This document shows, piece by piece, positions 43,058 through 63,536 of a DNA stretch of 64,000 nt. Position 1 is the first letter of the stretch; every line of letters starts with the position of its first letter. A program made the translations under genes and the position numbers. Where the stretch lies: positions 96,001 to 160,000 of IMG/VR virus record IMGVR_UViG_3300014204_000112; one strand, 5' to 3'. The notes beneath the pieces are model-generated. The model was not told where the DNA came from. It searched no databases and saw only the letters and a program-made list of their open reading frames with translations. This DNA comes from a virus. Its lineage: Duplodnaviria > Caudoviricetes.

Positions 43058-43399
43058 CTATACCACAAACGGTTGGTAATCGGTTTCCGTAACTCCACGA
43101 AGTTCTGCCAACATGTTCTGAGCTCCATTGTAGTTCCATGAGTGAATGATTACGATAGGCGGAGGGTTCTTCATTTTAGCAATGTGCTGAGCTACTTCGT
43201 AACCCGTGTTCTCACCGCTCTGTTGGTAAACCTTTCCTCCGAGATCATGGTCCAAGCTGGCCAAGTCGAACTTGATCTTTTTTAAGAGATCGATAGCTTC
43301 CTTGGCAGTTTCAGCTATGTGCAAGTCATGATTTGTTGCCCATCGTTTCTTTATAGCTTCGATGCGATTGTGATCATCGTCCAGGAAAAGTATTTTCAT
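43058..43399 (-). CDS. cyclic-phosphate-processing receiver domain protein
   Basis: ILFLDDD..R, SLDHDLG, TGYEV, IHSWN. Confidence 0.75.
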   Translation of the reverse strand: MKILFLDDDHNRIEAIKKRWATNHDLHIAETAKEAIDLLKKIKFDLASLDHDLGGKVYQQSGENTGYEVAQHIAKMKNPPPIVIIHSWNYNGAQNMLAELRGVTETDYQPFVV

Positions 43400-43413
43400 T
43401 GCTTCTTCTTATT

Positions 43414-44093
43414 TTATTGTAACAGGTCTATCTTACCCTTTTGTACGTCCTTCCATCTGCACTGCTTGTTGGTAGAGTGATCCACCACCATTCCATCGAC
43501 TATTCTGTACGTCCTCTTCCTCAATCCCCTACCACTATCTCCGATCTGATCGTTACGGTGATTTCTAATTCTTTCGTCGTGCTTGCTAGTTGCAATCGAC
43601 TTCAGTTTCTCCTCTAACAATTTGTAAGCGAGTTCCTCGTTCTTATTTTGATCTCGAGTTTTTTCGCACCTTATTTGAATGTCAGTTGGAATGTGAGTTA
43701 GTCGAACGCAGCTAGAAACTTTATTGACATTCTGGCCACCCTTCCGCGACTGCGTGTGTATTGCTTATTGATACTATTCATGTCAAGTTTGAATGAAACC
43801 TGGTCATCGGGATTCATTATAGCAACCGTTACGAAACTTGTCTGTATTCTTCCGTTCTTCTCGGTTGGTGGGACTCGTATGAAGCACTGGGAACCGCTTT
43901 CGTTTGAGAAGAACTTGCCTGCGTCATAGCCTTGTATTCATATCGACATGAACCCATCCCTGAGTTCAGTTACTCTTCAATTGTAAGCTTGGTTCTTGCA
44001 CGCTCTGACGTAAATGTTAGTCAGGTCTTCCACTAAAAGTTTTGAGTCATTGCCTCCCTCTGAAGCTCTGATCTCGAGTTTAATCTGTTTCAT
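43414..44093 (-). CDS. prfA: class I peptide chain release factor, RF1-type; two in-frame UGA and one -1 frame break
   Basis: LEIRASEGG, RVPPTEKNGRIQTS (PxT), GGQNVNKVSSCVRLTHIPT, RDQNKN, KRTY; TGA at 43977-79 and 43938-40; frame break near 43741. Confidence 0.85.
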
Positions 44094-44123
44094 TTGTTTG
44101 GCTTTTTTTAATCGCATAAAAAA

Positions 44124-44251
44124 CCGGAGAACATTGGAAAGAGTTGTTTTTGTTGCAAAAAGCGGATTCAAACCGCTGACATATTGTCCCCAAAACAATT
44201 GCCCTATCAGCTGGGCGATTTTCGCGAAGTAACTCTTGACCTTGCTACCGG
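44124..44251 (-). ncRNA. Y-RNA-like #1: conserved helix extending the acceptor stem of a tRNA(UGG)-like body
   Basis: UAGCAA..AGAGUUACUUCG / AACUCU..UUCU; D, anticodon and T arms in normal order. Confidence 0.7.
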
Positions 44252-44268
44252 ATTTCTTAAATTCAATT

Positions 44269-44469
44269 TCAAACCATGAGTTTGAAAATTCGCAGGTGAT
44301 TCAACAACTGCTCGTTACCCATCCATTCTGCATACCCATCAGCTTTTTGATAAGCTTCGTGAATGTTCAGGGCTTTCACGTAAAAGTGTAGAACTTCACC
44401 GCTCGTAAGGGTGATGTCTACCAGCCAATACTTGAGAGGCTGTTTCGGTTTTTCAGTTTGTGTTTTCAT
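44269..44469 (-). CDS. hypothetical protein
   Basis: 66 aa between two Y-like RNAs. Confidence 0.55.
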   Translation of the reverse strand: MKTQTEKPKQPLKYWLVDITLTSGEVLHFYVKALNIHEAYQKADGYAEWMGNEQLLNHLRIFKLMV

Positions 44470-44529
44470 ATTGTCAGAACGATCTGACTCTACGAACTGT
44501 TGATTCTCTTCATGGTTTTTAATAAGTTT

Positions 44530-44657
44530 TTGGGAGAATGGGACAAGGGCTTTACGCCTCTCGGCGTTCGGCCGGACTTGAACCGGCGATCCATTGTGTT
44601 GCGAACAATTGCTTAAACCAACTAAGCTACGAAGTATCCCTACGCGTTGCTACCCAA
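44530..44657 (-). ncRNA. Y-RNA-like #2: helix on the acceptor side of a tRNA-like body
   Basis: UAGCAA..AGGGAUACUUCG / CCCU..AUUCUC (covarying); GGUUCAAGUCC T arm. Confidence 0.7.
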
Positions 44658-44812
44658 ATATTTTTAATGTCTTCAAAGAACAAAGAAACCGTCGACTACT
44701 TTTCGAGGGAGGTACTTCATCTAATTTCCCTGTGTCCCCCTAGTATAAACCTCCGATTGATTCGGTAACGCATTTCTGCGCCTACGCATAGCGACGACCC
44801 GTTAGGGTGCAT

Positions 44813-45085
44813 TTAAGACACCTCGATTTCAGCCAGCCATTTTTTAGCCCAACCTTTAACCTTCTGAATGTCGCTATACGTTTGCATGTCAACCAATTTC
44901 AAGTACCTCATAGCGTTGCACCTAAAATGATTATCATTATCAAGCCAAATATTTATAGCTCCATTGTCTCCAGCAGCGGTTACCGCTAATTCGGTTGTAA
45001 TTTTTTTTACTTGAAAAGCCTTATTAATAAAAATGGCTTTAGTCTCTTTTCTGTTTGTCCCTTCTAAATTATTAAGTGTTACCAT
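44813..45085 (-). CDS. hypothetical cassette-like protein
   Basis: AT-rich; bounded by GTTAGGGTGCA / TGCACCTAA and ~40-nt imperfect direct repeats. Confidence 0.6.
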   Translation of the reverse strand: MVTLNNLEGTNRKETKAIFINKAFQVKKITTELAVTAAGDNGAINIWLDNDNHFRCNAMRYLKLVDMQTYSDIQKVKGWAKKWLAEIEVS

Positions 45086-45224
45086 AATTATGAACCTCCA
45101 ATTGATTCAGTAATGCATTATTGCACCTAAGCTACTTACCGTCTCACCTTTTCGGTTCAACAGCAATCCCGTTGTTTATCTTACTCCCACCTCGTCAGCG
45201 GTTTCAAAGAATTATTTATTTTTG

Positions 45225-45332
45225 AGGAGTGGCCAGAATTGAACTAGCAATCCGATTCAGCTTTTCCGAAGCCTTACTAACTTACCTAGGCTTTTAGCAG
45301 GTCCTTCGGGACTGTTTCGGCCCTTTTACTCC
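45225..45332 (-). ncRNA. atypical tRNA-like RNA
   Basis: GGAGT/ACTCC closing stem; GCTAG-TTCAATT-CTGGC T arm; non-tRNA interior. Confidence 0.4.
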
Positions 45333-45337
45333 ATGCG

Positions 45338-45370
45338 AAAAAAACGAGGCCGGCCTGGAACCGGCCTCGG
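45338..45370 (-). terminator. intrinsic terminator after TROVE gene
   Basis: CGAGGCCGG/CCGGCCTCG hairpin plus U7. Confidence 0.75.
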
Positions 45371-45380: not shown

Positions 45381-47009
45381 TTAGATTACGATCTTACGTA
45401 CCTTGTCCAGGTGGTATGTAGGATTGAATTCGACGTTGGCGATGTCGTCGAACATCGAGAAGCCGTAACCGTAGTAGAAACGGACCTTGTCACCGATCAG
45501 CTGAGTTGTGCCGTAGGATGCCAAGTCTACAGAGTAGACGTATGGGTTTCCGACGTTCCTCAGGTAGTTCGTGTACGAAGAGTACGTGTTTCCACGGTTG
45601 CATTCGTTGTCAGAGAGGATGAACACCCTGTCGTACGCCTTTCCGGAACGTGCTGCCAGATCCCAAGCGGTGCTTAGGTTGGTTCCACCAAGGTTAGCAT
45701 TGAACGACCTTGCGATCGAGAATACGTCCTGGTTTGCGTTCCATGGGGTGAAGTGAGCGCTCGATCCGAACTGAATAACGTCAGCATTGGTTGCCTTCGC
45801 GATTGTTGCTCCGATCAAGGATGCCTTGTCAGCACATGACGTTGAGTACTGAGTCTTCCTGTTAGGGTCGACCATCTTCGTGGTCATGGATCCGGACCTG
45901 TCGATGATAACGAGGTTCCTTCCTGGCAATGCTTCCGCAAGGTTTGGAACGGATGCTTCGTAACCGATCAACAGTGCCTGTGCGATCTTCCTTCCGTCCA
46001 TCTTCGAGCCGAATTCTGCGAGCAGAATTTCGCCGGCCATGTCGATCTGGTAAGGCATGATCTTTGCCTGCCTGATAAGGTTTGGGTCCGACAGAACTGC
46101 GCACAGCTTGTCAATCGTTGCACGATCGGAGACCGTGTTCAGAATGCTCCTGATGTTACGCAGAGCTGCAAGAGTACCGAGCTTACCTTCGGTCAACAGA
46201 GCTCCCCAGTTTTCAGCCTTAGCTTCCTTGAGGATTTCTGCACCTTCAGCCTTGGTGATCTTACCTGCCTTTACGGCCTTTGCAACTTCCTGACCTGCGT
46301 CAGAGTTAGCAACTTCCCAGGTGTCGGCGGATACAGCCAAGCCCTTGATAACGGCATCGATTGCAGATACCCTTTCGCCCTTGAATTCAACGAATGCCCT
46401 CGACTGCTTTGGGTCAGGGTGAACGAGGTTGATAACGTCGATCAATGCTGACTTGTACTTCAGGATCGAGTATGCGTCGAGCCTTTCGATTGCATCAGCA
46501 AAACCCTTCTTCATAGAGTTGGTTGCCTTCGTCTTGTTCATAACCGAGAAACAGGCGATGATTTCGGCCATGTCGTCCGGACGGAAAATGGTTCCACCAG
46601 ACTGGTTCTTCTTGTTCCACAGTGAGTAGAACCTCTTCGCCCATTCGAGACCAGCGCAGTAAGGAGCGAGGTAGCTTGCTGCGAGGTGGTTGATCGACCT
46701 CATACCTTCACCAACGCAACGTGAGTACACGATGCACTGTGCGGTTAGGTAAGGATCTTCCTTTGCACAGGCAGTAACGATTCCCTTGAGTTCCCTCATG
46801 GTTTCATTTTCTGACCTGTAGAACTGGTTTTCCAGCTTCAAGGTGTTGAGCATTGTGATCAGTCTCAACCACTTGTCGATCGCATAAGCCGCGTGGCCCG
46901 AACGATTGACAGTGTTAGGCGTAGGAACTGCGTTAGCAGCTACTAACTTCGCCTTAGGTGCCGTCTTGGCAAGCTTAGTACGAAGATTTGCGTTTCTGAA
47001 CTTTGTCAT
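45381..47009 (-). CDS. Ro60/Rsr-like TROVE-domain RNA-binding protein with C-terminal vWA domain
   Basis: TVNRSGHAAY, FYRSE, GMRS, RPDD, LVHP, AALRNIR, IDRSGSM, GGT, ILSDNE, VDLASYG. Confidence 0.85.
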   Translation of the reverse strand: MTKFRNANLRTKLAKTAPKAKLVAANAVPTPNTVNRSGHAAYAIDKWLRLITMLNTLKLENQFYRSENETMRELKGIVTACAKEDPYLTAQCIVYSRCVGEGMRSINHLAASYLAPYCAGLEWAKRFYSLWNKKNQSGGTIFRPDDMAEIIACFSVMNKTKATNSMKKGFADAIERLDAYSILKYKSALIDVINLVHPDPKQSRAFVEFKGERVSAIDAVIKGLAVSADTWEVANSDAGQEVAKAVKAGKITKAEGAEILKEAKAENWGALLTEGKLGTLAALRNIRSILNTVSDRATIDKLCAVLSDPNLIRQAKIMPYQIDMAGEILLAEFGSKMDGRKIAQALLIGYEASVPNLAEALPGRNLVIIDRSGSMTTKMVDPNRKTQYSTSCADKASLIGATIAKATNADVIQFGSSAHFTPWNANQDVFSIARSFNANLGGTNLSTAWDLAARSGKAYDRVFILSDNECNRGNTYSSYTNYLRNVGNPYVYSVDLASYGTTQLIGDKVRFYYGYGFSMFDDIANVEFNPTYHLDKVRKIVI

Positions 47010-47051: not shown

Positions 47052-47612
47052 CTACTCATTGGTCTCTTCGCGCGAAAATATTCCAATATCTTTTTTCCTA
47101 CGGTGCTTTGCACTTTCGGACATTTTTGCTTTAGTTTCAGGCGAATGGGTTCTTCCTGTCCAATCGCACGGTTTTATTTTTCCTTCTTTATGCAAGCGTT
47201 TGAAAATATCGGAATTTCTGTCTTTTACTTCTTTTCTAAATTCCGGATCTTCTTTTAATTTTTTTGATCTAGCAAATCCGCCTGCTACTGCTCCTTTTTT
47301 ACAACCTTTCGGCGAAATAAATCCGCCGCCGCCGCCATTAACCAAATTCATACATAATCGGTCAGTTAGAAGCTCTTCATTTACCAATTGGTGTTCTCTG
47401 TCTTTCAGTTGTTCCAAATTGGGTAAAAATTCTAAGATTTCCTTAGTATGATTTTCCAATCCGTACTTATTGATAGAGTACTTTAGTTTTCTACCGCTTC
47501 CCATGTAACCATCATGTATATTTGAGGTTGCATGCATTCCTATGTAATACTTTTCAGTTACTTTACAAGTAATTTTGTAAATGTAAAAGATTGAATTAGG
47601 TTTTCTTGGCAT
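47052..47612 (-). CDS. GIY-YIG homing endonuclease
   Basis: YIYKITC...YYIGMH, YMGSG; paralog of 54664 and 55779. Confidence 0.9.
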   Translation of the reverse strand: MPRKPNSIFYIYKITCKVTEKYYIGMHATSNIHDGYMGSGRKLKYSINKYGLENHTKEILEFLPNLEQLKDREHQLVNEELLTDRLCMNLVNGGGGGFISPKGCKKGAVAGGFARSKKLKEDPEFRKEVKDRNSDIFKRLHKEGKIKPCDWTGRTHSPETKAKMSESAKHRRKKDIGIFSREETNE

Positions 47613-47667
47613 TTGTGTTCCATATTTTGGATTATTTATCCATCATTAGGTACACAAAATACCAGTG

Positions 47668-47742
47668 AGGCAAGGATGGGATTCGAACCCATGACTTTAC
47701 TGTTTTGCAGACAGTCCCCTTTGACCACTCGAGCACCTTGCC
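47668..47742 (-). tRNA. tRNA-Cys(GCA)
   Basis: ACTGT-CTGCAAA-ACAGT. Confidence 0.85.
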
Positions 47743-47755
47743 GTGCTTTACTCAG

Positions 47756-47829
47756 TATCCGCGGAGGGACTCGAACCCCCAACCCTTTGATCCGTAGTCA
47801 AAAGCTCTATCCAATTGAGCTACGCGGAC
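47756..47829 (-). tRNA. tRNA-Arg(ACG)
   Basis: TTTGA-CTACGGA-TCAAA. Confidence 0.85.
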
Positions 47830-47845
47830 ATGTATTCTTTATTAG

Positions 47846-47917
47846 TAGCCAGCAAGCGAATCGAACGCTTATCTCAAGTTCCGGAAACTTGCGTTCTATC
47901 CGTTGAACTAGTCGGCC
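47846..47917 (-). tRNA. tRNA-Arg(CCG)
   Basis: CAAGT-TTCCGGA-ACTTG. Confidence 0.8.
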
Positions 47918-47935
47918 ATATCATCTTGGGAAATG

Positions 47936-48011
47936 TGGTGGGATCGGAGGGAATCGAACCCTCAACCCCCTGATTAAGAGTCAGGTGCTCTGCCTGTTAA
48001 GCTACGAACCC
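47936..48011 (-). tRNA. tRNA-Lys(CUU)
   Basis: CCTGA-CTCTTAA-TCAGG; CCA encoded. Confidence 0.85.
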
Positions 48012-48019
48012 ATATTTAT

Positions 48020-48095
48020 TGGTGACCCAGGAAGGACTCGAACCTTCGACCCACAGCTTAGAAGGCTGTTGCTCTATCCACTGAGCTACAAGGCC
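48020..48095 (-). tRNA. tRNA-Arg(UCU)
   Basis: ACAGC-CTTCTAA-GCTGT; CCA encoded. Confidence 0.85.
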
Positions 48096-48106
48096 GGATT
48101 TTTTCG

Positions 48107-48181
48107 TGGTAGCCCAACCGAGAATCGAACTCGGATCTAAAGTTTAGGAAACTTCTATTCTATCCGTTGAACTATCAGGCC
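48107..48181 (-). tRNA. tRNA-Arg(CCU)
   Basis: GAAGT-TTCCTAA-ACTTT; CCA encoded. Confidence 0.85.
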
Positions 48182-48241
48182 ATATTTCTCGTTTACCTGG
48201 ATGATCCAGGCGGGATTATCTTGTGATAGTCACTGTAACTA

Positions 48242-48538
48242 TCATTCGATTACCTTCTGCCATTTGGCTAACTTCGTTTCGATCATTGATTTTATCTGAT
48301 CTTTCGACATTCCGATTCGAGTCATGAATGCAAGTATTACCAGTAGGACGTCGACTGCTTCTTCTCCAACATCTTCGATGCTCTTGTTCTTGTACTCGCA
48401 ACCGCATGCTTTTTCGTACGATAGAAGAGCTTCGGCAACTTCGCCGGATTCTTCCATCAGCTTCAGAAGCAACTGCGATGCAGTCTTGCCCTCTTTGGTT
48501 CTTGACACTTCCATTATTTTGTCGATCAATTCTTCCAT
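48242..48538 (-). CDS. MazG-like nucleotide pyrophosphohydrolase
   Basis: KLMEESGEVAEA, EEAVDV, KLAKW. Confidence 0.8.
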   Translation of the reverse strand: MEELIDKIMEVSRTKEGKTASQLLLKLMEESGEVAEALLSYEKACGCEYKNKSIEDVGEEAVDVLLVILAFMTRIGMSKDQIKSMIETKLAKWQKVIE

Positions 48539-48567
48539 GTTAACGATTTTTGATCTATTATACTGAG

Positions 48568-48606
48568 CGGAGGATGAGAGGCTCGAACTCTCGCGGCTTT
48601 TACACC
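48568..48606 (-). pseudogene. 3' half remnant of a Ser-type tRNA
   Basis: Variable arm, T arm and acceptor 3' strand only. Confidence 0.5.
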
Positions 48607-48618
48607 ATTTACTTTTTG

Positions 48619-48707
48619 CGGCAGAGAGAGGATTCGAACCTCCGGGCCAGTTTTCACCGACCGACAGTTTAGCAAACTGCTACCTTAAACCTCTCGGTCA
48701 CTCTACC
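48619..48707 (-). tRNA. tRNA-Ser(GCU)
   Basis: GCAGT-TTGCTAA-ACTGT; long variable arm. Confidence 0.85.
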
Positions 48708-49356
48708 GTATAATATGTTTATCGATTAAAACTAGTTTATCCCATATTTCTAAATTACCAGTAAATTGACTCCATTTACTGCGGTCAAGTTCTGTAATAT
48801 ATCCTTTAACCTCAATAAACGTATTTGTCTCTAACAAATAAAAATCTGGGCAATATGTTCTGTTTTTACCAGTTGAATCTGTATAATCAAATCGTTTTTT
48901 ATTTCGTATCCATTTAACATTATGACTATCCAAAAATTTGGCAACCGCTAATTCCCATGAACCATCTAACTTAACAACTCCAGCAATAGGACTAACGTAA
49001 TCAATTTTAACTGTTCTGCCGGCTTTTGATTCCCAACCATTTGCATATCGTCGTTTCATTTCTTCACTGCGTTGTTCGCAGAAAATAGACGACATTTGTC
49101 GACCTGCTATTTTGCTAGATAATAATTTTTTAGTTTCAGGCTTATGGTGTCTACCTTTCCAAGTAGATCCATCATTTAATTTTTTAAAATGACTTGTTCG
49201 TATCCCACTATCATATTGTTCTTTGAGTTTAATTGTTATTTTTTCTCCAATTTTAGACTTAACGTCAGAACACAACTGATAATTTGGCATGCAGCAAACC
49301 TTTCCATTTTTCAATGTAAATTTTGCTTCTTCTTTTTGACAATACGAACACAGCAT
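48703..49356 (-). CDS. PD-(D/E)xK putative homing endonuclease
   Basis: GSWEL, YCPDFYL, FIEVKGY. Confidence 0.8.
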   Translation of the reverse strand: MLCSYCQKEEAKFTLKNGKVCCMPNYQLCSDVKSKIGEKITIKLKEQYDSGIRTSHFKKLNDGSTWKGRHHKPETKKLLSSKIAGRQMSSIFCEQRSEEMKRRYANGWESKAGRTVKIDYVSPIAGVVKLDGSWELAVAKFLDSHNVKWIRNKKRFDYTDSTGKNRTYCPDFYLLETNTFIEVKGYITELDRSKWSQFTGNLEIWDKLVLIDKHIIR

Positions 49357-49392
49357 ACGTTTTTATTTATTTATACTGGCCCCATAAGTAAA

Positions 49393-57507: not shown

Positions 57508-57848
57508 GTATATGAAGCAACGATTTTCCATGTCAGTAGGACGTTGCCAACCTATCCAGCTTACGATCTGGCTCGCCGTTTGACCTTGCGGTCAGGGAAA
57601 GCGAGGAACTACGACCCGGTGGCCTGCCGGTACATCGAGCCTTTAGACGGATTCGAACCGCCGACTCCTCAACTACACCGTATGGTCTTGATTCGTGTAC
57701 ACTCCTCTTGATTTTCAGGTTCGTCTACCTCGAATCTCCTGGTTATCCATTCAAGTTGTCTTACGTACGACGCATTGAACCTTTCGCCAAAATTTCCAAG
57801 GTCCGGTCCTAATCCGGACGCTCTAAGCCGCTGAGCTAAGGGGATATT

Positions 57849-58442
57849 TTATTTGTTAAAATTTATTTCGATGAATCTTTTTGTTTGAGTATTAGAAATG
57901 TTCCAACTTTTTGATAATTTCGTAATCCAACCGAATTTCTTTTCTATTGAATCATACTCATTTTTTCTTCTATTAAATTCGTCAGTTTTCATTTTTCCAG
58001 CTTCGCTTATCAATCTTTTAGATTCAGAAGTATGTCGTTTTCCTTTGAACGATGCAGCACCCAATCTTTTTCTTTTTGATAATGGAATTGGCCAACCCTT
58101 GTGTTTTCCTTCAATAACGTTTTTCTTTATTGATTCTCTTCTCTCTGGTCTGCTCCAAGCGTATTCCCAACCACCTTCTCCTCCAAGCTTGAGATTGTAA
58201 GTATCTTCTCTGTTAATAAAGAATTCATTTACTAGTTCTTTTTCTTTTTCTAGAGCTTCATTTTTCGTTGGAAAAACGTAAAGAATTTCTTTTCTGAAAT
58301 TTTGAATCCCATATTTTTTAATTGCCGCTTTTAACAATTTTCCAGAACCAAAATACTCGTCATTCAAATTTTTAGTTGAATGATAACCGATGTAAATTTT
58401 AGAATTTAAGCAATTTGTTATTTTGTAAATAGCGTAATACAT
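57849..58442 (-). CDS. GIY-YIG homing endonuclease (Seg-like)
   Basis: AIYKITN...IYIGYH, YFGSG, TYNLKLGGEGG. Confidence 0.9.
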   Translation of the reverse strand: MYYAIYKITNCLNSKIYIGYHSTKNLNDEYFGSGKLLKAAIKKYGIQNFRKEILYVFPTKNEALEKEKELVNEFFINREDTYNLKLGGEGGWEYAWSRPERRESIKKNVIEGKHKGWPIPLSKRKRLGAASFKGKRHTSESKRLISEAGKMKTDEFNRRKNEYDSIEKKFGWITKLSKSWNISNTQTKRFIEINFNK

Positions 58443-58487
58443 TAACCGTAGTTTTGATTTTATTTATATGAATCTGCGGTTAATTTG

Positions 58488-58560
58488 AGCTTCCTGTAGG
58501 CTACGACCCCACGACCCTCTGAGTACAAATCAGATGCTCTACCAACTGAGCTAAGGAAGC
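58488..58560 (-). tRNA. tRNA-Thr(UGU)
   Basis: TCTGA-TTTGTAC-TCAGA. Confidence 0.85.
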
Positions 58561-58570
58561 ATTTTTTGAG

Positions 58571-58643
58571 AGCCTCATACCCGATTCAAACGGGTGACCT
58601 ACTGAGTACGAATCAGTTGCTCTATCTGCTGAGCTAAAGAGGC
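58571..58643 (-). tRNA. tRNA-Thr(CGU)
   Basis: ACTGA-TTCGTAC-TCAGT. Confidence 0.85.
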
Positions 58644-58644
58644 A

Positions 58645-59079
58645 TTATAAATCTTTGGCTGTTACGAATTCCTGTGAACTGATTCGGTTAGGACCTCCAT
58701 CGACGAAGTACGTAAGATTATTTCCAGTTCGTATTGCCCATAGTATCAACCAATTAAGAACAGCTGAATCCATTTTAGAAACTGCTTCTATAGCTTGATA
58801 ATGTTCAATCTTGCCAGTTTTCTTCGTCACTAGAACGTTGGACAAGCTCGGTTTCATCCACATTGGAAAGTCATCATTCGTTAACCATTCGCACTTGTAA
58901 GTTATGCAAGGATCGATCGGTCTATTCTCGTAAATCGTGCAACCTTTTCCGATTTCTACAAAGTGACAAGGTTTTCCTCGATAGAATCTTTCTCCATGAG
59001 CTACTCCGTGTAACCAACCTTCACAACATTTCGTGCAATCTCCACAAGTTCTTTTTGGAACATTAACAGTTTTTTCCAT
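58645..59079 (-). CDS. Cys-cluster protein (YkgJ-like)
   Basis: RTCGDCTKCC, GCTIYENRP..C..YKCEWL; likely start MEKTV. Confidence 0.7.
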   Translation of the reverse strand: MEKTVNVPKRTCGDCTKCCEGWLHGVAHGERFYRGKPCHFVEIGKGCTIYENRPIDPCITYKCEWLTNDDFPMWMKPSLSNVLVTKKTGKIEHYQAIEAVSKMDSAVLNWLILWAIRTGNNLTYFVDGGPNRISSQEFVTAKDL

Positions 59080-59126
59080 TCTAGTAGTTTTACTTATTAT
59101 ACAGAAGGACCGTAACAAGTTTTATT

Positions 59127-59202
59127 TGGCACCCGCGGAAGGACTTGAACCCTCAACCCTCGGTTTTGGAGACCGGTACTCTACCAATTGAGCTACACGG
59201 AT
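59127..59202 (-). tRNA. tRNA-Trp(CCA)
   Basis: CCGGT-CTCCAAA-ACCGA; CCA end encoded. Confidence 0.85.
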
Positions 59203-59207
59203 AAGTT

Positions 59208-59316
59208 TGATTTGAGAATGGTAAAAAGAGTTTTTTACTAAGCAAGGTTTGGTGCTTGGTGTTGGATTCGAACCAACGATAACCATCGATGTATCTCTTT
59301 TTTTTGCTACAAATCA
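59208..59316 (-). ncRNA. Y-RNA-like #6: helix plus T arm and loop-closed acceptor only
   Basis: UAGCAA..AGAGAUACAUCG / ACUCUUUUUACCAUUCUC; GUUGG-UUCGAAU-CCAAC. Confidence 0.65.
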
Positions 59317-59317
59317 G

Positions 59318-59394
59318 CGGGCCCAAACGGATTCGAACCGTCCTGAATCTTCTGAGTGACAGTCAGACAGCCACACCTAGCAGCCCCTGAGCCC
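59318..59394 (-). tRNA. tRNA-Asp(GUC)
   Basis: TCTGA-CTGTCAC-TCAGA. Confidence 0.85.
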
Positions 59395-59922
59395 ATGTTC
59401 TTTTTCTTCAATATTCTGTAGTTTCCAAACTTCAAACTGAATATTTTGTTCAGATAATGCTTTCCATTTACACTTATCGATTTCAGTTTCAAATCCTTTA
59501 ACTTCAATGTAATAGGTAGATCCATTAATATTGATGACTTTGAAATCCAATAGATAATTATGAACTTCGTTATCTGGACCTATGTATTGTATTCGGTCAT
59601 TTGTGTATTCCCAATCTCTTATTAAGTAGTTGGCCTTCCAATTATCAAGAATTTTACAAACTCGTAATTCAAAGGATCCCTGTACCTTGATTGATTTATA
59701 TTGATACCATTTAGAAGTTCCACCAGCTACATAATTATGACCTAACCTATAAGCTTGTTTATGAACTTCTGACCAATTTACTTTATTATGGTTTGACCAA
59801 CTTCCTCGTAATTTACTAGAACAGCTAACTGAGCAACATTTTTGATTTCTTTTATTCCAGTGAACTGAGAATTTAGTCAAACAATATTTACAAATTAACT
59901 GCACATCTTCGTGTTTTGTCAT
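59377..59922 (-). CDS. PD-(D/E)xK putative homing endonuclease
   Basis: QGSFEL, DWEYTNDRIQY, YLLDF, YIEVKGF; paralog of 49549. Confidence 0.8.
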   Translation of the reverse strand: MTKHEDVQLICKYCLTKFSVHWNKRNQKCCSVSCSSKLRGSWSNHNKVNWSEVHKQAYRLGHNYVAGGTSKWYQYKSIKVQGSFELRVCKILDNWKANYLIRDWEYTNDRIQYIGPDNEVHNYLLDFKVININGSTYYIEVKGFETEIDKCKWKALSEQNIQFEVWKLQNIEEKEHGLRGC

Positions 59923-59968
59923 GGCACTTTATTTATACGCGCCTCGTCTTTCGCCGTGAAGTTAAATG

Positions 59969-60044
59969 TGGTAGGCTCGAAGGGACTTGAACCCTTGACT
60001 CCCGCCTTAAAAGGGCGGTACTCTACCAACTGAGTTACGAACCC
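59969..60044 (-). tRNA. tRNA-Lys(UUU)
   Basis: CCGCC-CTTTTAA-GGCGG; CCA encoded. Confidence 0.85.
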
Positions 60045-60460
60045 GTAATCGCTTCTCGAATCTTTTGTTTATGTTCATCCGATTTAGCTTTACCCCTATT
60101 TCCTTTACCACCGTTTGACGAACGTTTTCTCAAAAGTTCTTTAGCTTTAACTTTGCCATGTTTATCAATCATTCGTTGATAGATTGATGGCGCTCCATTT
60201 TCGTATTCGTCAATTTTATTATCTGACTTAGTCCCCCAATACATGTGATTAGGATTACTACATTTTGGATTGTTACAGCCGTGGCAAACAACGATGCTAT
60301 TTCCATTGACTGGCATTGTCGTATCGTAGTGGTATGCAACCAGAGCAACTAACTGAGTAGAGTATTTCAATCCACGTTCGTGGCAAGGTTCCTCTAACTT
60401 TAGCATTTGTTTTCTTTGTGCTCTAGTGTTTTCGATTACAAAATTTTCAACTGATTTCAT
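60035..60460 (-). CDS. HNH endonuclease (NUMOD3 tail)
   Basis: VCHGCNNPKCSNPNHMYWGTKSDN. Confidence 0.8.
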   Translation of the reverse strand: MKSVENFVIENTRAQRKQMLKLEEPCHERGLKYSTQLVALVAYHYDTTMPVNGNSIVVCHGCNNPKCSNPNHMYWGTKSDNKIDEYENGAPSIYQRMIDKHGKVKAKELLRKRSSNGGKGNRGKAKSDEHKQKIREAITGS

Positions 60461-60541
60461 GTTTTAGTTTATATATCTAGAGCAATCTCTTAAAAGTACA
60501 GCACTCTAGCGATAATTGGTCTTTGTTCAATAAATAACGGC

Positions 60542-60739
60542 ATGGTTAATGAACGTTATTTTATGTGCTCCAAGTGCGGAACAGTCGTCGACTCGTTCGG
60601 CAAAGCAGTGGATGCAAAGAAACTAGAAATAGACATAAAATCTTTAAGAAGTACCACTTGTAAGATTTGTCTTGACTATCAAATCTGGGAAAACAATACT
60701 TACTTTTCGAGGACTGATCGGGACTCGAACCCGAGATAA
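60542..60739 (+). CDS. small zinc-ribbon protein, antisense to the array
   Basis: CSKC...CKIC; TAAATA upstream on + strand. Confidence 0.45.
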   Translation: MVNERYFMCSKCGTVVDSFGKAVDAKKLEIDIKSLRSTTCKICLDYQIWENNTYFSRTDRDSNPR

Positions 60740-60779
60740 CCAACTGGATGGGGCGCGCACCAACCACCACGTTCAGCCC
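60710..60779 (-). ncRNA. tRNA-like RNA lacking a canonical anticodon arm
   Basis: GGGCTGA/TCAGTCC acceptor; TCGGG-TTCGAGT-CCCGA T arm. Confidence 0.45.
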
Positions 60780-60790
60780 ATAAATACAAA

Positions 60791-60925
60791 CAAGAACACT
60801 GGATAGAGGAATTTGATTGATGTCAATTTTACAGATTGATGACTTAGACCGCTCGTCCAACGACCCGAAAGCCGTACGGGATTCGAACCCGTGATCGAAG
60901 TAACTCTATGACCTTACTATGCTTG
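60791..60925 (-). ncRNA. Y-RNA-like #7: permuted tRNA-Tyr(GUA)-like body opened at the variable arm
   Basis: AGAGUUACUUCG, T arm, acceptor closed by a UUCG-containing loop, D arm, UCAAU-CUGUAAA-AUUGA, then CUCUAUCCAGUGUUCU. Confidence 0.75.
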
Positions 60926-61409
60926 ATTTCTTATTTACAATGTTTTTTGCTCCGAACGTATGTGTTTGTGAATGACAGTTTGGACACAAAATTCTCAGAT
61001 TTTGAAGTCTGTGATTTCGGTTATTTCCGTCAATATGATCGACTTGTAATGATAAAGGTAGACCGTTCCATTCTGCTGGAGTTCCGCATTCTTCACATCG
61101 ATCCTCTTTATAACCTTCCAGTATCAATCGTCTTTTTAATTTCGATGTCGGATATTCTGGGTGTTTTCCTTCAAGAATGTCTAGCAATTTGAATGCTACT
61201 CCTCCGGTTCTTTTCATTTTTCGTAACTTGACTTCAATTTGTATTCCTAACAAATTGCAATATTTGGTTAGGGTTACTCTACTGATTCCAGTTACTTCTG
61301 AAAGTTCCAAAACAGAGCTAACGTTCTTGGCATTTTCATTGATTTTGTCTACGATTTCTTGGTTTAGCCGCATTGCTTTATTTTTATTTATATGCGGTCT
61401 GTTTACCAA
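60906..61409 (-). CDS. HNH homing endonuclease
   Basis: CEECG, LQVDHIDG, NLRILCPNCHSQT. Confidence 0.9.
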   Translation of the reverse strand: MVNRPHINKNKAMRLNQEIVDKINENAKNVSSVLELSEVTGISRVTLTKYCNLLGIQIEVKLRKMKRTGGVAFKLLDILEGKHPEYPTSKLKRRLILEGYKEDRCEECGTPAEWNGLPLSLQVDHIDGNNRNHRLQNLRILCPNCHSQTHTFGAKNIVNKKSSIVRS

Positions 61410-61426
61410 AACCTCTGTAAACTACG

Positions 61427-61508
61427 TGGGATGTGATGGAGTCGAACCACCCGAGCTTTCACAACAGATTTACAGTCTGCCCCGCTACCATCTACGGAAT
61501 AACATCCC
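61427..61508 (-). tRNA. tRNA-Tyr(GUA)
   Basis: GCAGA-CTGTAAA-TCTGT. Confidence 0.85.
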
Positions 61509-61549
61509 ATTGTCCCTCTATTTTTGATTTCCTGGAGGGTGCGGAAGGT

Positions 61550-61670
61550 GCGGGAAGGTGAGATTCGAACTCACGAGATCAAATTGACAGTTTGATTGTT
61601 TCCGATGCAACTCTTATCATTGCTATCCTTTCAGAAGAAATTCGACAGAGCGTTTTGAATTTCTTCCCCG
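61550..61670 (-). ncRNA. Y-RNA-like #8: tRNA(GUC)-like with helix replacing the D arm
   Basis: CUCUGUCGAAUUUCUUC-loop-GAUAGCAAUGAUAAGAGUUGCAUCG; AUCAAA-CUGUCAA-UUUGAU; T arm. Confidence 0.75.
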
Positions 61671-61706
61671 AGTGTACCTGTTTTTACTGTACAGGAGAAC
61701 AGTGTA

Positions 61707-61826
61707 GGAGGGGGAAGTTGGATTTGAACCAACGATCAAATTTTCAAGGTTTGATTGTGCCGATGAAACTCTTATCATTGCTATCATCGCTGAAGAAAGT
61801 CGACAGAGTCGTTTTTACTTTCCCCC
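61707..61826 (-). ncRNA. Y-RNA-like #9: tRNA(UGA)-like with helix replacing the D arm
   Basis: Same architecture as #8; anticodon loop CUUGAAA. Confidence 0.75.
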
Positions 61827-61842
61827 ATGTTTTATTAAGTAT

Positions 61843-61967
61843 TGGCGAGGGAGGCTGGATTTGAACCAACATAATCAAGTTTTCAATTTGACTGTTACCG
61901 ATGCAACTCTATTCATTGCTATCATTGCTGAAGAAAGTCGGATAGAGCATTGTGTATATGCTCCCTC
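61843..61967 (-). ncRNA. Y-RNA-like #10: tRNA(GAA)-like with helix replacing the D arm and CCA end
   Basis: GAGGGAG/CUCCCUC-GCCA acceptor; anticodon loop UUGAAAA. Confidence 0.75.
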
Positions 61968-61975
61968 ATGTATTT

Positions 61976-62764
61976 TTATAGGTTCCAAGATTTTCCTTTG
62001 TACTCCCGATTCACTCTTCGGTATGAAGAGATGATCCCTTGTGAATGAAGATCGTAACCGTTGAGTATTCTTATATTCATTGGAAATTGGTCCCATTTTG
62101 CGAAATCTTTATCTGTAGGATATCCTTTAATTTCGATGTAAACATTATCCTCTAAAAGATAAAAATCTGGCGTGTAATACCTTTTTTTTCCATCAAAGAA
62201 GTATTCGAATTTTTCAGTAGGTCTTCGCCACTTGATCGAATTTGCATCCAACCATTTAGCATATTCAACTTCCCATATTCCTTGAAATTTTTTTCCAGCA
62301 TATTCATGAGTTCTAGACTTAGAAAAGGATAAATGCCAATTATCATTTTTAACGTTTTCTTTTATTGTATTAGCAATAGTATTTCGATGATCTATTGATA
62401 AATGTTTTCCTTTAAAAAAAGGTATGAATGCACCGGATTTAAGGTTAGTATTAAAAGTATCTGACCCTTTTTTAACTCTAGCATCGGTTTCTTTGGTTAA
62501 TCCGTGATTCCATGAAGGTTTACCACCAAGATTATTATTTTTCCAATTAATTCCATCTTCATGATTTCTCCAAATGTGAGAAATGATTCCTAATTTAGAA
62601 TAAACTTTACCACAGTATGGGCATTTATAAGTTCCATCATTTTGTAAATAATTAATGCTCTTTAATCTAATTTTCTTAGTTCCACAAGATTTTTCATGTT
62701 TAGATATATTACTTAAACTTATCTTAATGCCGCATTTTTTACAGTTAGTAGTGTGTCGGTTCAT
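61976..62764 (-). CDS. PD-(D/E)xK putative homing endonuclease with zinc fingers
   Basis: CPYCGK, QGIWEV, YTPDFYL, YIEIKGY. Confidence 0.8.
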   Translation of the reverse strand: MNRHTTNCKKCGIKISLSNISKHEKSCGTKKIRLKSINYLQNDGTYKCPYCGKVYSKLGIISHIWRNHEDGINWKNNNLGGKPSWNHGLTKETDARVKKGSDTFNTNLKSGAFIPFFKGKHLSIDHRNTIANTIKENVKNDNWHLSFSKSRTHEYAGKKFQGIWEVEYAKWLDANSIKWRRPTEKFEYFFDGKKRYYTPDFYLLEDNVYIEIKGYPTDKDFAKWDQFPMNIRILNGYDLHSQGIISSYRRVNREYKGKSWNL

Positions 62765-62815
62765 TGCATTTGACCTTTATTTCTATTTATAATAGTCATA
62801 TGCAATTATTGTTAG

Positions 62816-62886
62816 CGGGTCCTCCTGGGCTCGAACCAGGGATCGAAAATTAACAGTTTCCCGTGATACCTCTTCACCAAAGACCC
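62816..62886 (-). tRNA. tRNA-Asn(GUU)
   Basis: GGAAA-CTGTTAA-TTTTC. Confidence 0.8.
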
Positions 62887-63062
62887 AATGTATTGAACGT
62901 GTCGACCACCCAACAAGGCCGATGTTATGGTGCAATTTGAAGCGCCGCACCTGGATTAGGGATTTCAGAGGTTGTTACTTGTGCTCAGCCTACGGGCCAC
63001 TCACTTTCTTTATGCATGTCTTGCATCGATTTCGCAACTTGAACCATCGTTCAATTTTTTAT

Positions 63063-63138
63063 TGGAGCGAGAGACGGGGATCGAACCCGCTGCATCCAGC
63101 TTGGAAGGCTGGCACTCAACCAAATGAGCTTCTCTCGC
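63063..63138 (-). tRNA. tRNA-Gly(UCC)
   Basis: CCAGC-CTTCCAA-GCTGG; CCA encoded. Confidence 0.85.
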
Positions 63139-63341
63139 AATTATGGTAAGGGGATTCTCACGAAGGCCCTTACCTTGTCCGGAGGATGGTCGCCTCCAGA
63201 CGTTATGCCAATATTTCCCAAGATGTCAAAGAACATCGTAACTGTAGCGATGTCCTGCTACTCTGTTACTGTGTGAATGAAGTTGGACTCGACCAACGTG
63301 TATTCTCTAATTCACTCGTATTTCAAAAGAACTGATGCCGT

Positions 63342-63379
63342 AAAACGAAAAAACCCGGACTTTTTGAAGGTCCGGGTTT
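63342..63379 (-). terminator. attenuator terminator at the head of the tRNA array
   Basis: AAACCCGGAC/GTCCGGGTTT 10-bp stem followed by TTTCGTTTT. Confidence 0.8.
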
Positions 63380-63410
63380 TCCCTAGATTTCGTGATATGT
63401 TATTTCACCT

Positions 63411-63536
63411 TCACTCTAACCTATGTAAACCCAGACCCATTCTTTCGTCGCATGACGGATTCCATGTGCCAATAAATCCCACGAGGGCTATTGGTTGGGA
63501 ACTACGATACGACTTATGTAAGTTCTGGTTTTTCAT
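63411..63536 (-). CDS. 41-aa leader peptide MKNQNLHKSYRSSQPIALVGFIGTWNPSCDERMGLGLHRLE
   Basis: Below the ORF-track cutoff; GATAAATA motif and A-rich spacer upstream; contains antiterminator strand 63427-63438. Confidence 0.75.
   Translation of the reverse strand: MKNQNLHKSYRSSQPIALVGFIGTWNPSCDERMGLGLHRLE

What the first reader, a model, noticed from the sequence alone, without database searches (positions are those of the whole stretch)
43058..63536. A 20-kb co-oriented translation-rescue island
Seen: leader/attenuator, about 38 tRNAs for all 20 amino acids, RNase P RNA, Ro60 with Y-like RNAs, MazG, recoded RF1 and a cyclic-phosphate receiver protein all lie on one strand, with a PTH remnant and suppressor tRNA further downstream. 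Inference: an inducible module that senses, replaces, decoys and repairs host tRNA and termination functions.
Basis: inference. Interest (0 to 1): 0.7.

Follow-up and report, generated by a model that had tools for sequence, protein, structure and literature searches.

The report
Phage tRNA array with translation accessories
This stretch of a large uncultured phage really holds a complete tRNA gene set with its own miniature RNase P RNA, a Ro60 protein with partner RNAs and a stop-codon-gated release-factor gene, but it is a patchwork riddled with selfish endonuclease genes and cut by a terminator, not one proven inducible rescue module.

Summary
Most listed components are real. There are 39 tRNA genes covering all 20 amino acids, all on the minus strand. 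A ~195-nt RNase P RNA lacks the specificity domain and has strong covariation support. A TROVE/Ro60 gene is accompanied by a 23-nt RNA motif repeated 9 times, found only in this region of the genome. MazG-like and cREC genes are present. A domain-1-less RF1-type gene carries in-frame TGAs, and an amber-suppressor tRNA lies downstream. No PTH remnant was found.

Synteny is conserved only for tRNA array + Ro60 + motif RNAs, in 28 related loci. RF1, cREC and MazG are variable. A strong terminator directly after Ro60 separates the RF1/cREC end. Co-orientation is not special, because about 50 kb run on this strand.

The RF1-type gene belongs to a widespread phage family gated by a read-through stop or a prfB-like +1 frameshift. 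The window copy also has a 1-nt deletion before GGQ and is probably decaying.

A conserved 41-codon ORF plus terminator precedes the array, but a conserved promoter-like box follows that terminator.

This scan has already noted the mini RNase P RNA and the gated RF on other phage DNA. Verdict: real and interesting parts; the unified inducible "rescue island" is only partly supported.

The parts
63603..63632 (-). Promoter-like site upstream of the small ORF (TCGACC-18-TAAAAT, TG-extended)
   Evidence: Consensus scan. The block is alignable in L112 and L113. Function not shown.
63411..63536 (-). Conserved 41-codon ORF whose first 31 residues contain all 20 amino acids
   Evidence: The frame is kept in two relatives by a 3-nt indel. 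Substitutions fall 5/3/12 by codon position. P(all 20 in 31 aa) is about 2e-4. However, 6 of 654 small ORFs in the genome hold all 20 amino acids.
63350..63380 (-). Intrinsic terminator: 11-bp stem, 9-nt loop, T-rich tail
   Evidence: Own scan, fold, conserved in L112 and L113.
63202..63229 (-). Conserved TTGACA-N16-CATAAC promoter-like box, about 65 nt upstream of the first tRNA
   Evidence: Single match in the window, 0.03 expected. It is 94% identical in relatives while its flanks diverge.
47667..63138 (-). Main tRNA array: 38 tRNA genes, 36 distinct anticodons across the region, all 20 amino acids
   Evidence: ARAGORN and Rfam. The same gene order occurs in L002-L005.
47052..62764 (-). 14 homing-endonuclease-like ORFs interleaved with the tRNAs. 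Starts: 47052, 48703, 49549, 51275, 52019, 53304, 54664, 55779, 56731, 57849, 59377, 60035, 60906, 61976
   Evidence: Pfam GIY-YIG, HNH, DUF559 and endonuclease I, plus PHROG endonuclease families. They total 8,412 nt, 41% of the region. Eight overlap the 5' end of the next tRNA by 2-18 nt. Their number varies between relatives.
52686..52882 (-). Miniature RNase P RNA (catalytic domain only) between tRNA-Thr(GGU) and an endonuclease gene
   Evidence: Rfam RNaseP_arch scores 26-29 bits, below the gathering score. GAGGAAA, AGAUAAAUG and AACAGAA are kept. Helices P1, P2, P3 and P4 are supported by covariation. Homologs L093 and L110 sit in or beside tRNA arrays.
49402..49526 (-). YrlA-like RNA with T arm, acceptor-like hairpin and D arm in the permuted YrlA order
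   Evidence: Rfam RF02553, 31.9 bits against a gathering score of 69, E 1.6e-5 in a local search. It lies 2.4 kb from Ro60 on the same strand and carries the 23-nt motif.
48242..48538 (-). MazG-like pyrophosphatase, 98 aa
   Evidence: Pfam MazG scores 22.7 bits against a cut-off of 22. phrog_1247 gives E 6e-12. No homolog in any related locus.
45381..47009 (-). Ro60-like TROVE + vWA protein, 542 aa
   Evidence: Pfam VWA_2, TROVE and vWA_Ro60. PDB TROVE proteins match at E 8e-9 over residues 38-520. phrog_850 gives E 4e-30. 28 homologous loci at 37-99% identity, nearly all beside tRNA arrays.
45345..45369 (-). Strong intrinsic terminator directly after Ro60: 11-bp stem, 8 G-C pairs, T7 tail
   Evidence: It is the only canonical terminator on this strand between 63350 and 39796.
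45221..45334 (-). Conserved ~110-nt structured RNA with a closing stem and a T-arm-like hairpin
   Evidence: RNAalifold on 5 sequences: 10 of 33 pairs show compensatory changes. No Rfam match.
44567..44652 (-). tRNA-like element with a weak acceptor stem, preceded by the 23-nt motif
   Evidence: Rfam tRNA scores 45.8 bits on model positions 4-67 only, and ARAGORN does not call it. Equivalent partial tRNA-like hits follow Ro60 in L007, L012 and L015.
44152..44247 (-). tRNA-Pro(UGG)-like gene enclosed by the motif stem (AAGAGUU...AACUCUU)
   Evidence: Conserved in L003.
43414..44093 (-). RF1-type release-factor gene lacking domain 1. It has in-frame TGAs at codons 39 and 52 and a 1-nt deletion before GGQ, so it is probably a decaying copy
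   Evidence: Pfam RF-1 E 2e-22, frames, alignment with L006 and L003, family survey, prfA scoring above prfB in NCBIfam.
43058..43399 (-). cREC (cyclic-phosphate processing receiver) domain protein, starting 14 nt after the RF stop
   Evidence: Pfam PF20274 E 2e-18, above the cut-off. Present in L003, and near the RF gene in L067.
42369..42806 (-). NUDIX hydrolase just outside the stated region. It continues the same gene string: cREC, orf77, NUDIX, AAA ATPase
   Evidence: Pfam NUDIX E 6e-11. Conserved in L002 and L003. A cRec-Nudix link was proposed in PMC7824862.
38513..38586 (-). Amber-suppressor tRNA (anticodon CUA)
   Evidence: ARAGORN and Rfam, 58.8 bits.

Best explanation
The region is the tRNA-array neighbourhood of a large phage (record of at least 214 kb). 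It is a mosaic, not a single evolved module.

Core unit. The conserved core probably runs as one long transcription unit. It starts at the conserved TTGACA-N16-CATAAC box at 63229-63202 and ends at the strong terminator at 45369-45345. This unit encodes four things:
- a complete decoding set of tRNAs;
- a catalytic-domain-only RNase P RNA, which most likely trims the 5' leaders of the polycistronic pre-tRNA, presumably with the host RnpA protein;
- a Ro60 ring protein;
- several RNAs carrying one shared 23-nt stem motif fused to tRNA-like bodies. These are the likely Ro60 partners and would act in quality control or turnover of misfolded or damaged tRNA-like RNA.

Invasion by selfish genes. 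Fourteen homing-endonuclease genes have inserted next to tRNA 5' ends. They doubled the length of the array.

Separate downstream string. Beyond the terminator lies a variable gene string: motif RNAs, orf66, the RF1-type gene, cREC, NUDIX and an AAA ATPase. Its RF1-type gene belongs to a phage family whose expression is gated by an internal stop codon. In this clade the gene is being lost.

What is shown and what is inferred. Shown: the sequence features, their conservation, the covariation and the synteny pattern. Inferred: the transcription unit, ribozyme activity, Ro60 binding of the motif RNAs, and the benefit (tRNA supply independent of the host, for example against tRNA-cleaving defences).
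For: - tRNA set and order are conserved.
- Endonuclease content and its variability.
- RNase P RNA: the universal blocks are kept. 94.6% of cells are paired, against 28-40% in slid controls. 36 of 53 pairs are compensatory. P4 was not in the search model and still covaries. Homologs lie inside other phage tRNA arrays.
- Ro60 lies beside tRNA arrays in 28 loci.
- The motif has 9 copies, all on the coding strand and only in this region of the genome. It has 38 copies, always on the Ro60 strand, in 19 of 28 Ro60 loci. It has 0 copies in 726 kb of other phage loci, many of them holding tRNA arrays.
- Only two canonical terminators flank the array.
- RF family survey and decay in this clade.
- Literature: the E. 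coli C-domain alone cleaves pre-tRNA (PMC5839562, abstract). Ro60 with a tRNA-like partner occurs in some jumbo phages (PMC7824862). YrlA-like RNAs were reported in 22 phages (PMC4201824).
Against: - There are no expression data. Sigma-70-like sites are not enriched (50 found, 43.5 expected), and the promoter box rests on conservation only.
- The RNase P RNA and the YrlA-like RNA both score below their Rfam gathering thresholds.
- The RNase P RNA was not found in the records of ten more distant Ro60 relatives, so it is not an obligatory part of the core.
- No RnpA gene is in the record.
- All Ro60 loci come from related phages, so the motif could be lineage-specific and not Ro60-specific. It could also be a processing stem, such as an RNase III site.
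- The record is only about 83% complete.
Confidence: 0.6

Rival explanations
1. First reader's model. The whole 20 kb is one inducible translation-rescue module. A pan-amino-acid leader peptide senses tRNA depletion and opens the terminator. The array then replaces host tRNAs, Y-like RNAs act as decoys for tRNA-targeting nucleases, cREC and Ro60 repair damage, and the gated RF1 restores termination.
For: - A promoter-like site, a conserved 41-codon ORF with all 20 amino acids in its first 31 residues (P about 2e-4) and a strong terminator sit directly upstream of the array. All are conserved in relatives.
- The leader region is unusually structured, z = -4.3.
- All components concern tRNA or translation.
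- About half of 56 RF loci hold tRNAs nearby, and cREC recurs near the RF gene in L067.
Against: - RF1, cREC and MazG are not syntenic with the array.
- The RF copy is frameshifted here, deleted in L003 and absent in L002.
- A strong terminator separates Ro60 from the RF/cREC end.
- A conserved promoter-like box lies downstream of the leader terminator.
- No antiterminator appears in the fold.
- The peptide sequence itself is under purifying selection, which fits a small protein.
- 6 of 654 small ORFs in the genome also hold all 20 residues.
- The record has no RtcB, PTH or CCA-adding enzyme.
Confidence: 0.1
2. Plain tRNA supply plus hitch-hikers. The array only serves codon-usage or tRNA-supply needs. 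Ro60, the odd RNAs, MazG, RF1 and cREC are unrelated cargo that accumulates here because homing endonucleases make the array a recombination hot spot.
For: - Endonuclease genes make up 41% of the region, with variable insertions between relatives.
- MazG is unique to this genome.
- RF and cREC are patchy.
- Several tRNA-like remnants with broken acceptor stems are present.
Against: - The Ro60-array association persists from 99% down to 37% protein identity.
- The motif RNAs co-occur with Ro60 and are absent from other arrays.
- The RNase P RNA shows strong purifying and compensatory evolution, and lies in arrays in unrelated phages.
- Both patterns argue for function tied to the tRNAs.
Confidence: 0.2
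3. The RF1-type gene in the window is still functional. Its two UGAs are read through, and the -1 shift before GGQ is either programmed or an assembly error.
For: - Both TGAs are shared with L006 despite about 30% nucleotide divergence.
- The codon-52 stop is kept in at least 10 further loci while the flanking Ile codons vary.
- The reading frames on either side of the shift are otherwise intact, and the gene ends 14 nt before cREC.
Against: - No other family member needs a shift at that site.
- No slippery heptamer is at the site.
- Close relatives show independent loss.
Confidence: 0.25

Closest known systems
Large-phage tRNA arrays with translation genes (T4/T5-type clusters; huge phages, PMC7162821; jumbo phages, PMC7824862)
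   Same: One-strand tRNA clusters with interspersed homing endonucleases. Neighbouring translation or RNA-repair genes. Release factors, Ro/TROVE and cRec have been reported in some large phages.
   Different: This array is a full 20-amino-acid decoding set. It sits together with its own RNase P RNA, nine motif-bearing tRNA-like RNAs and a gated RF1-type gene. I found no paper describing that combination.
Bacterial and archaeal RNase P RNA (Rfam clan CL00002; type A M1 RNA; Thermoproteaceae type T minimal form, PMC3579882)
   Same: GAGGAAA (CR-I), AGAUAAAUG (CR-IV-like) and AACAGAA (CR-V) are present. P1, P2, P3 and the long-range P4 helix are present.
   Different: It is only about 195 nt. 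The specificity domain is reduced to one hairpin. In the window clade P4 is AAUUGG/CCAAUU with no bulged U, unlike L093, L101 and L110. It scores below every Rfam gathering threshold, it is phage-encoded, and no RnpA is in the record.
Rsr(Ro60)-YrlA/YrlB-RtcBA RNA repair operon of Salmonella and other bacteria; YrlA in mycobacteriophages (PMC4201824, PMC7790460)
   Same: A TROVE+vWA protein with same-strand tRNA-like RNAs within 4 kb. One RNA has the permuted T-arm/acceptor/D-arm order of YrlA.
   Different: No RtcB, RtcA or RtcR. The gene is embedded in a tRNA array. The shared motif TAGYAA-N5-ASRGWUNCWUCG is not the published GNCGAA motif. The motif is attached to tRNA bodies in several arrangements.
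prfB (RF2) autoregulatory +1 frameshift, SD-N3-CUU UGA C (PMC12421855)
   Same: An internal stop codon gates synthesis of a class-I release factor. About 26 family members carry GGAGG-N3-CTT-TGA/TAG-C.
   Different: The protein is RF1-type (PPT motif; prfA scores above prfB) and lacks domain 1. The site is in domain 2. TAG occurs in the motif, which was never seen in 8,164 prfB genes. The window subgroup uses in-frame read-through and not a shift.
Code-change module of TGA-recoded Jade phages: suppressor tRNA + TrpRS + RF1 (bioRxiv 10.1101/2021.08.26.457843)
   Same: A phage-encoded RF1 and a suppressor tRNA lie in the same genome region.
   Different: There is no genome-wide recoding here. 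The suppressor reads UAG, not UGA. No UCA-anticodon tRNA exists in the record. The RF gene itself carries the stops.
Leader-peptide transcription attenuators (trp, his, thr operons)
   Same: Promoter-like site, short ORF, then an intrinsic terminator before the downstream genes.
   Different: No run of regulatory codons. No antiterminator alternative was found. The peptide sequence is conserved. A conserved promoter-like box follows the terminator.

Membership tests
RNase P RNA | Conserved blocks CR-I (GAGGAAA...), CR-IV and CR-V (ACAGAA) | tested here: met
   Present and invariant in all 7 aligned sequences.
RNase P RNA | Long-range P4 helix between CR-I and CR-V, supported by covariation | tested here: met
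   Helix 4: 97.6% of cells paired, and 3 of 6 pairs show compensatory change. P4 was not part of the search model.
RNase P RNA | Score at or above the Rfam gathering threshold | tested here: not met
   26-29 bits against 84 for RF00373. No other clan model scored better.
RNase P RNA | Specificity domain (P7-P12) that reads the tRNA T-loop | tested here: not met
   Replaced by one hairpin. Type T archaeal RNAs also lack this domain.
RNase P RNA | Cleaves pre-tRNA 5' leaders | not testable with these tools
   Needs an in vitro assay.
Class-I release factor RF1 (prfA) | PxT codon-recognition tripeptide and GGQ catalytic motif | tested here: met
   PPT and GGQ are present. In the window GGQ lies in another frame.
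Class-I release factor RF1 (prfA) | Full four-domain protein reaching the NCBIfam equivalog cut-off | tested here: not met
   Only model positions about 105-340 are covered. Scores of 138-290 bits fall below the cut-offs of 400-423. prfA outscores prfB in all 10 members scanned.
Class-I release factor RF1 (prfA) | Uninterrupted reading frame | tested here: not met
   Two in-frame TGAs plus a -1 shift.
Ro60 / TROVE | TROVE HEAT-repeat ring followed by a vWA domain | tested here: met
   Weak Pfam TROVE, vWA_Ro60 and VWA_2 hits. PDB TROVE proteins match at E 8e-9 over residues 38-520. phrog_850 gives E 4e-30.
YrlA (Y RNA-like, RF02553) | Rfam gathering score | tested here: not met
   31.9 bits against 69.
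YrlA (Y RNA-like, RF02553) | tRNA-like T and D arms in permuted order, same strand, within 4 kb of Ro60 (criteria of PMC4201824) | tested here: met
   Alignment. Distance 2.4 kb, minus strand.
YrlA (Y RNA-like, RF02553) | Binds Ro60 | not testable with these tools
   Only co-occurrence of the motif with Ro60 loci is shown.
cREC (PF20274) | Pfam gathering score | tested here: met
   67.2 bits against 27.
MazG (PF03819) | Pfam gathering score | tested here: met
   22.7 bits against 22, which is borderline. phrog_1247 gives E 6e-12.
Peptidyl-tRNA hydrolase (PTH1 / PTH2) | Any six-frame match to PF01195 or PF01981 | tested here: not met
   No match at E up to 1 (PF01195) or up to 0.1 (PF01981) in the whole record.
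Leader-peptide attenuator | Short ORF followed by an intrinsic terminator | tested here: met
Leader-peptide attenuator | Mutually exclusive antiterminator structure coupled to ribosome position | tested here: inconclusive
   None appears in the minimum-free-energy or centroid fold. Alternative folds were not enumerated.

The most novel reading that the evidence does not exclude
The conserved core (promoter box to Ro60 terminator) is a self-contained tRNA factory. A phage ribozyme, the mini RNase P RNA, matures the phage's own polycistronic pre-tRNAs. Ro60 is loaded through a shared 23-nt stem grafted onto tRNA-like bodies and polices or shields these RNAs. The upstream 41-codon ORF samples all 20 amino acids and tunes read-through into the array according to the charged-tRNA supply. 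In related phages that keep it intact, a stop-gated mini-RF1 adds termination capacity only when host termination at UGA falters.
Probability: 0.12. Interest if true: 0.85.

Novelty: new variant of a known kind. Interest (0 to 1): 0.6.

Why it matters
Phage tRNA arrays are usually read as codon-usage aids or as spares against tRNA-cutting defences. Here the array carries its own processing ribozyme and a Ro60 ribonucleoprotein system, so a virus may bring not only tRNAs but also part of the machinery that matures and checks them.

Two parts appear absent from the papers I could search. One is a half-sized RNase P RNA in phages. The other is an RF1-type factor gated by internal stop codons, although programmed recoding is described only for RF2 (PMC12421855). 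Both are directly testable in vitro.

The negative result matters equally. The parts do not form one conserved, co-regulated island, so they should be studied as separate modules.

Tried and rejected
- Genome-wide TGA or TAG recoding: rejected. Long ORFs are intact under code 11, and TGA-joined ORF pairs are not enriched.
- A UGA-suppressor tRNA: none among the 42 tRNAs. The Rfam-only tRNA-like at 44567-44633 has a GCA-type loop and a 4-bp acceptor stem.
- PTH remnant: not found.
- RtcB, CCA-adding enzyme and RnpA: absent from the record.
- Close cultured relatives: megablast against GenBank phages matched single tRNAs only. tblastn places the nearest RF homologs in the 595-735-kb uncultured phages and the nearest Ro60 homolog in a 635-kb one.
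Degenerate DNA patterns worked instead.
- RNase P RNA in more distant Ro60 relatives: no convincing match in ten whole records or by Rfam in L007, L012 and L015.
- The sigma-70 consensus scan of the array was uninformative: 50 sites against 43.5 expected.
- Literature searches for phage RNase P RNA and for recoding in phage or RF1 genes found no description.

Full report
Setting. The window is bases 96001-160000 of a 213,922-bp IMG/VR virus record. The record is linear and CheckV estimates it as 83% complete. GC content is about 41%. Minus-strand ORFs run almost without interruption from about 13.5 kb to the end of the window. Co-orientation of the 20 kb is therefore not a special property of the region.

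Checking the parts. ARAGORN finds 42 tRNA genes, all on the minus strand, and these are all the tRNAs of the record. Thirty-nine lie in 43058-63536. They cover all 20 amino acids with 36 different anticodons, enough with wobble for a full decoding set. Rfam confirms them and adds one partial tRNA-like hit at 44567-44633. Pfam, PHROGs and PDB sequence searches give the following:
- cREC at 43058-43399, E 2e-18;
- a TROVE+vWA Ro60-like protein at 45381-47009 (PDB TROVE proteins E 8e-9, phrog_850 E 4e-30);
- a borderline MazG-like ORF at 48242-48538.

They occupy 8,412 of 20,479 bases, and the tRNAs occupy 3,037. Eight of these ORFs end 2-18 nt inside the next tRNA gene. No PTH1 or PTH2 signal exists in any frame of the record. 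The ORF next to the amber-suppressor tRNA (38513-38586) matches a phosphoheptose-isomerase PHROG.

RNase P RNA. A sub-threshold Rfam hit (RNaseP_arch, 26-29 bits, gathering score 84) at 52710-52867 keeps GAGGAAA, AGAUAAAUG and AACAGAA. The element spans 52686-52882 and lies between tRNA-Thr(GGU) and an endonuclease gene.
- It is about 94% identical in L002, L004 and L005, although their Ro60 proteins are as low as 78% identical. In L003 it is interrupted by an insertion.
- A covariance model built from four sequences, together with one pattern scan of IMG/VR, recovered three diverged full-length homologs: L093, L101 and L110, at 61-65 bits.
- On the seven-sequence alignment, 94.6% of cells pair, against 28-40% when partners are slid. 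36 of 53 pairs show compensatory change. This alignment was fitted to the model, which favours the modelled helices.
- P4 was not in the model and still covaries: AAUUGG/CCAAUU in the window clade, AAGUCGGGA/UCCCGCUU in L093, AAGUCCCGA/UCGGGCUU in L110 and AACUCCCGA/UCGGGGUU in L101.
- L093 sits inside a 26-tRNA array and L110 follows a tRNA-Leu cluster.
- The specificity domain is reduced to one hairpin. No RnpA gene is in the record.
- Ten more distant Ro60-bearing records gave no convincing match.

I conclude that this is a genuine catalytic-domain-only RNase P RNA homolog. Activity is inferred. The E. coli C-domain alone is reported to cleave pre-tRNA (PMC5839562, abstract).

Ro60 and its RNAs. 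Ro60 homologs at 37-99% identity were found in 28 viral loci, nearly all flanked by tRNA arrays on the same strand.
- The Rfam YrlA model gives one sub-threshold hit at 49402-49526 (31.9 bits against 69) with the permuted T-arm, acceptor hairpin and D-arm order.
- A 23-nt motif, TAGYAA-N5-ASRGWTNCWTCG, occurs nine times in the window, with 0.03 expected. All copies are on the minus strand between 44.2 and 61.9 kb, and none lies elsewhere in the 214-kb record. The pattern was derived from these copies, so the exact count is partly circular.
- A looser form of the motif occurs 38 times in 19 of the 28 Ro60 loci, always on the Ro60 strand. It occurs zero times in 726 kb of other phage loci, many of which hold tRNA arrays.
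- The motif forms the 5' half of a stem (AAGAGUU...AACUCUU) that encloses or abuts tRNA-like bodies in several arrangements.
- Directly after the Ro60 terminator lies a further conserved ~110-nt structured RNA, with 10 of 33 pairs compensatory.
- In relatives the DNA after Ro60 carries T-arm-like motifs spaced about 115-130 nt apart, and partial tRNA-like hits.

These data fit Ro60-associated Y-like RNAs, as known from bacteria and 22 phages (PMC4201824; PMC7824862). Binding is not shown. A lineage-specific processing stem, such as an RNase III site, remains possible.

The RF1-type gene. Pfam RF-1 matches 43477-43749. The gene starts at 44093 with MKQIKLEIRASEGG, so it lacks domain 1. It carries PPT (the PxT type) and GGQ. 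It has in-frame TGAs at codons 39 and 52 and needs a -1 shift just before GGQ.
- The L006 homolog is about 70% identical in DNA. It has the same two TGAs but not the shift, so the window lacks one base. L003 has a large internal deletion, and L002 lacks both the RF gene and cREC.
- Two degenerate pattern scans found about 55 further loci, many on contigs of 100-500 kb.
- Some members keep an in-frame stop 23 codons before PPTEK. It is TGA in at least 10 loci and TAG in L036, while the neighbouring Ile codons vary. Some have a second stop.
- About 26 members carry a prfB-like cassette, GGAGG-N3-CTT-TGA-C. Six of these have TAG, and most sites lie 36-37 codons before PPTEK. These require a +1 shift.
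- About seven members are uninterrupted.
- All ten members scanned score higher on prfA than on prfB, over model positions about 105-340 only.
- The genome is not recoded and has no UCA-anticodon tRNA.
- Prince et al. (PMC12421855) report programmed frameshifting for prfB only, none for prfA, and never TAG in the motif.
- Phage RF1 and RF2 genes are known (PMC7162821; Borges et al. preprint), but I found no description of this gating.

"Recoded RF1" is therefore a correct observation about the family. The window copy is most likely a recently inactivated member; I put this at about 0.7.

Leader and transcription layout. Upstream of the first tRNA the minus strand carries, in order:
- a promoter-like site at 63632-63603;
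- a 41-codon ORF at 63536-63411;
- a strong terminator at 63380-63350;
- a TTGACA-N16-CATAAC box at 63229-63202;
- tRNA-Gly at 63138.

All of these are conserved in two relatives. The ORF keeps its frame through a 3-nt indel, and substitutions fall 5/3/12 by codon position, so the peptide is under selection. Its first 31 residues hold all 20 amino acids (P about 2e-4). However, 6 of 654 small ORFs in the genome also hold all 20. No antiterminator appears in the predicted fold.

Between 63350 and 39796 the only canonical terminator on this strand is the 11-bp, 8-GC hairpin with a T7 tail at 45369-45345, immediately after Ro60. This layout suggests one long unit from the array to Ro60, and a separate downstream string of motif RNAs, orf66, the RF gene, cREC, orf77, NUDIX and an AAA ATPase. 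That division is inferred from sequence only.

Synteny test.
- tRNA array + Ro60 + motif RNAs are syntenic across the family.
- Among the Ro60 loci, the RNase P RNA is confined to the closest clade, L002-L005.
- The RF gene follows Ro60 in 2 of 21 loci with enough downstream flank. cREC does so in 1, and MazG in none.
- About half of the 56 RF loci hold tRNAs within a few kb, and 14 hold 11 or more. There is thus a loose tendency for translation genes to sit near arrays, but no fixed module.

Repair genes are sparse. RtcB, PTH and a CCA-adding enzyme are absent, and one RNA-ligase domain lies at window 375-1004.

Verdict. The best reading is a conserved tRNA-supply and maturation core (tRNAs, mini RNase P RNA, Ro60 with motif RNAs). 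That core has been inflated by homing endonucleases and sits next to variable accessory genes, including a decaying member of an interesting stop-gated RF1-type family. Earlier notes of this scan describe the same mini RNase P RNA and gated RF family on other phage DNA. I reached these results from this window's own data. The earlier notes are not independent evidence.

Noticed in passing
window 45221-45334 (-): A conserved ~110-nt structured RNA lies immediately after the Ro60 terminator. It has a 6-bp closing stem, one long arm and a T-arm-like hairpin (GYNAG-UUCAAUU-CUNRC). 10 of 33 pairs are compensatory in 5 sequences, and there is no Rfam match.
   Followed up: partly
window 61540-61975 (-): Three tandem ~140-160-nt units. 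Each carries the 23-nt motif in the middle of a tRNA-like body with a T arm (repeat families D17 and D19).
   Followed up: partly
window 48703-60460 (-): Eight endonuclease ORFs end 2-18 nt inside the 5' end of the following tRNA gene. This suggests that homing sites or insertion points lie at tRNA 5' ends.
   Followed up: no
window 52645-52690 (-): A hairpin (GCAUGGCGUU...AACGCCAUGC) lies between the RNase P RNA and the DUF559-type endonuclease gene. Its 3' arm covers that gene's ATG, so it may act as a translational clamp on the endonuclease.
   Followed up: no
L003:1921-2262: In this close relative the RNase P RNA is interrupted by an insertion of about 140 nt between the P15-like helix and the AGAUAAAUG block.
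   Followed up: no
L007, L009, L013, L014, L016, L025 (next to Ro60, mostly just downstream): ARAGORN-76-nt tRNAs with UCA or UUA anticodons (opal or ochre suppressor-like) next to Ro60 in several relatives. They may be real suppressors or Y-RNA tRNA-like modules.
   Followed up: no
L058 / L085 and L078: These RF family members have atypical recoding sites. L058 and L085 have CTT-TAG-C only 21 codons before PPTEK. L078 has an AAC-TGA-A frame change with no CTT.
   Followed up: no
window 57508-57848 (-): A 341-nt non-coding gap holds a D-arm-like start, a T-arm-like hairpin and a very stable fold (-102 kcal/mol). It may be a split or intron-bearing tRNA-like RNA.
   Followed up: no
window 375-1004 (-): An RNA_ligase (PF09414) domain lies in a 759-aa open frame that runs off the window start. 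It is the only RNA-ligase-type match found in the record.
   Followed up: no
window 31793-33955 (-): A 720-aa vWA-domain protein lies in a locally GC-rich stretch (0.49 against about 0.41).
   Followed up: no
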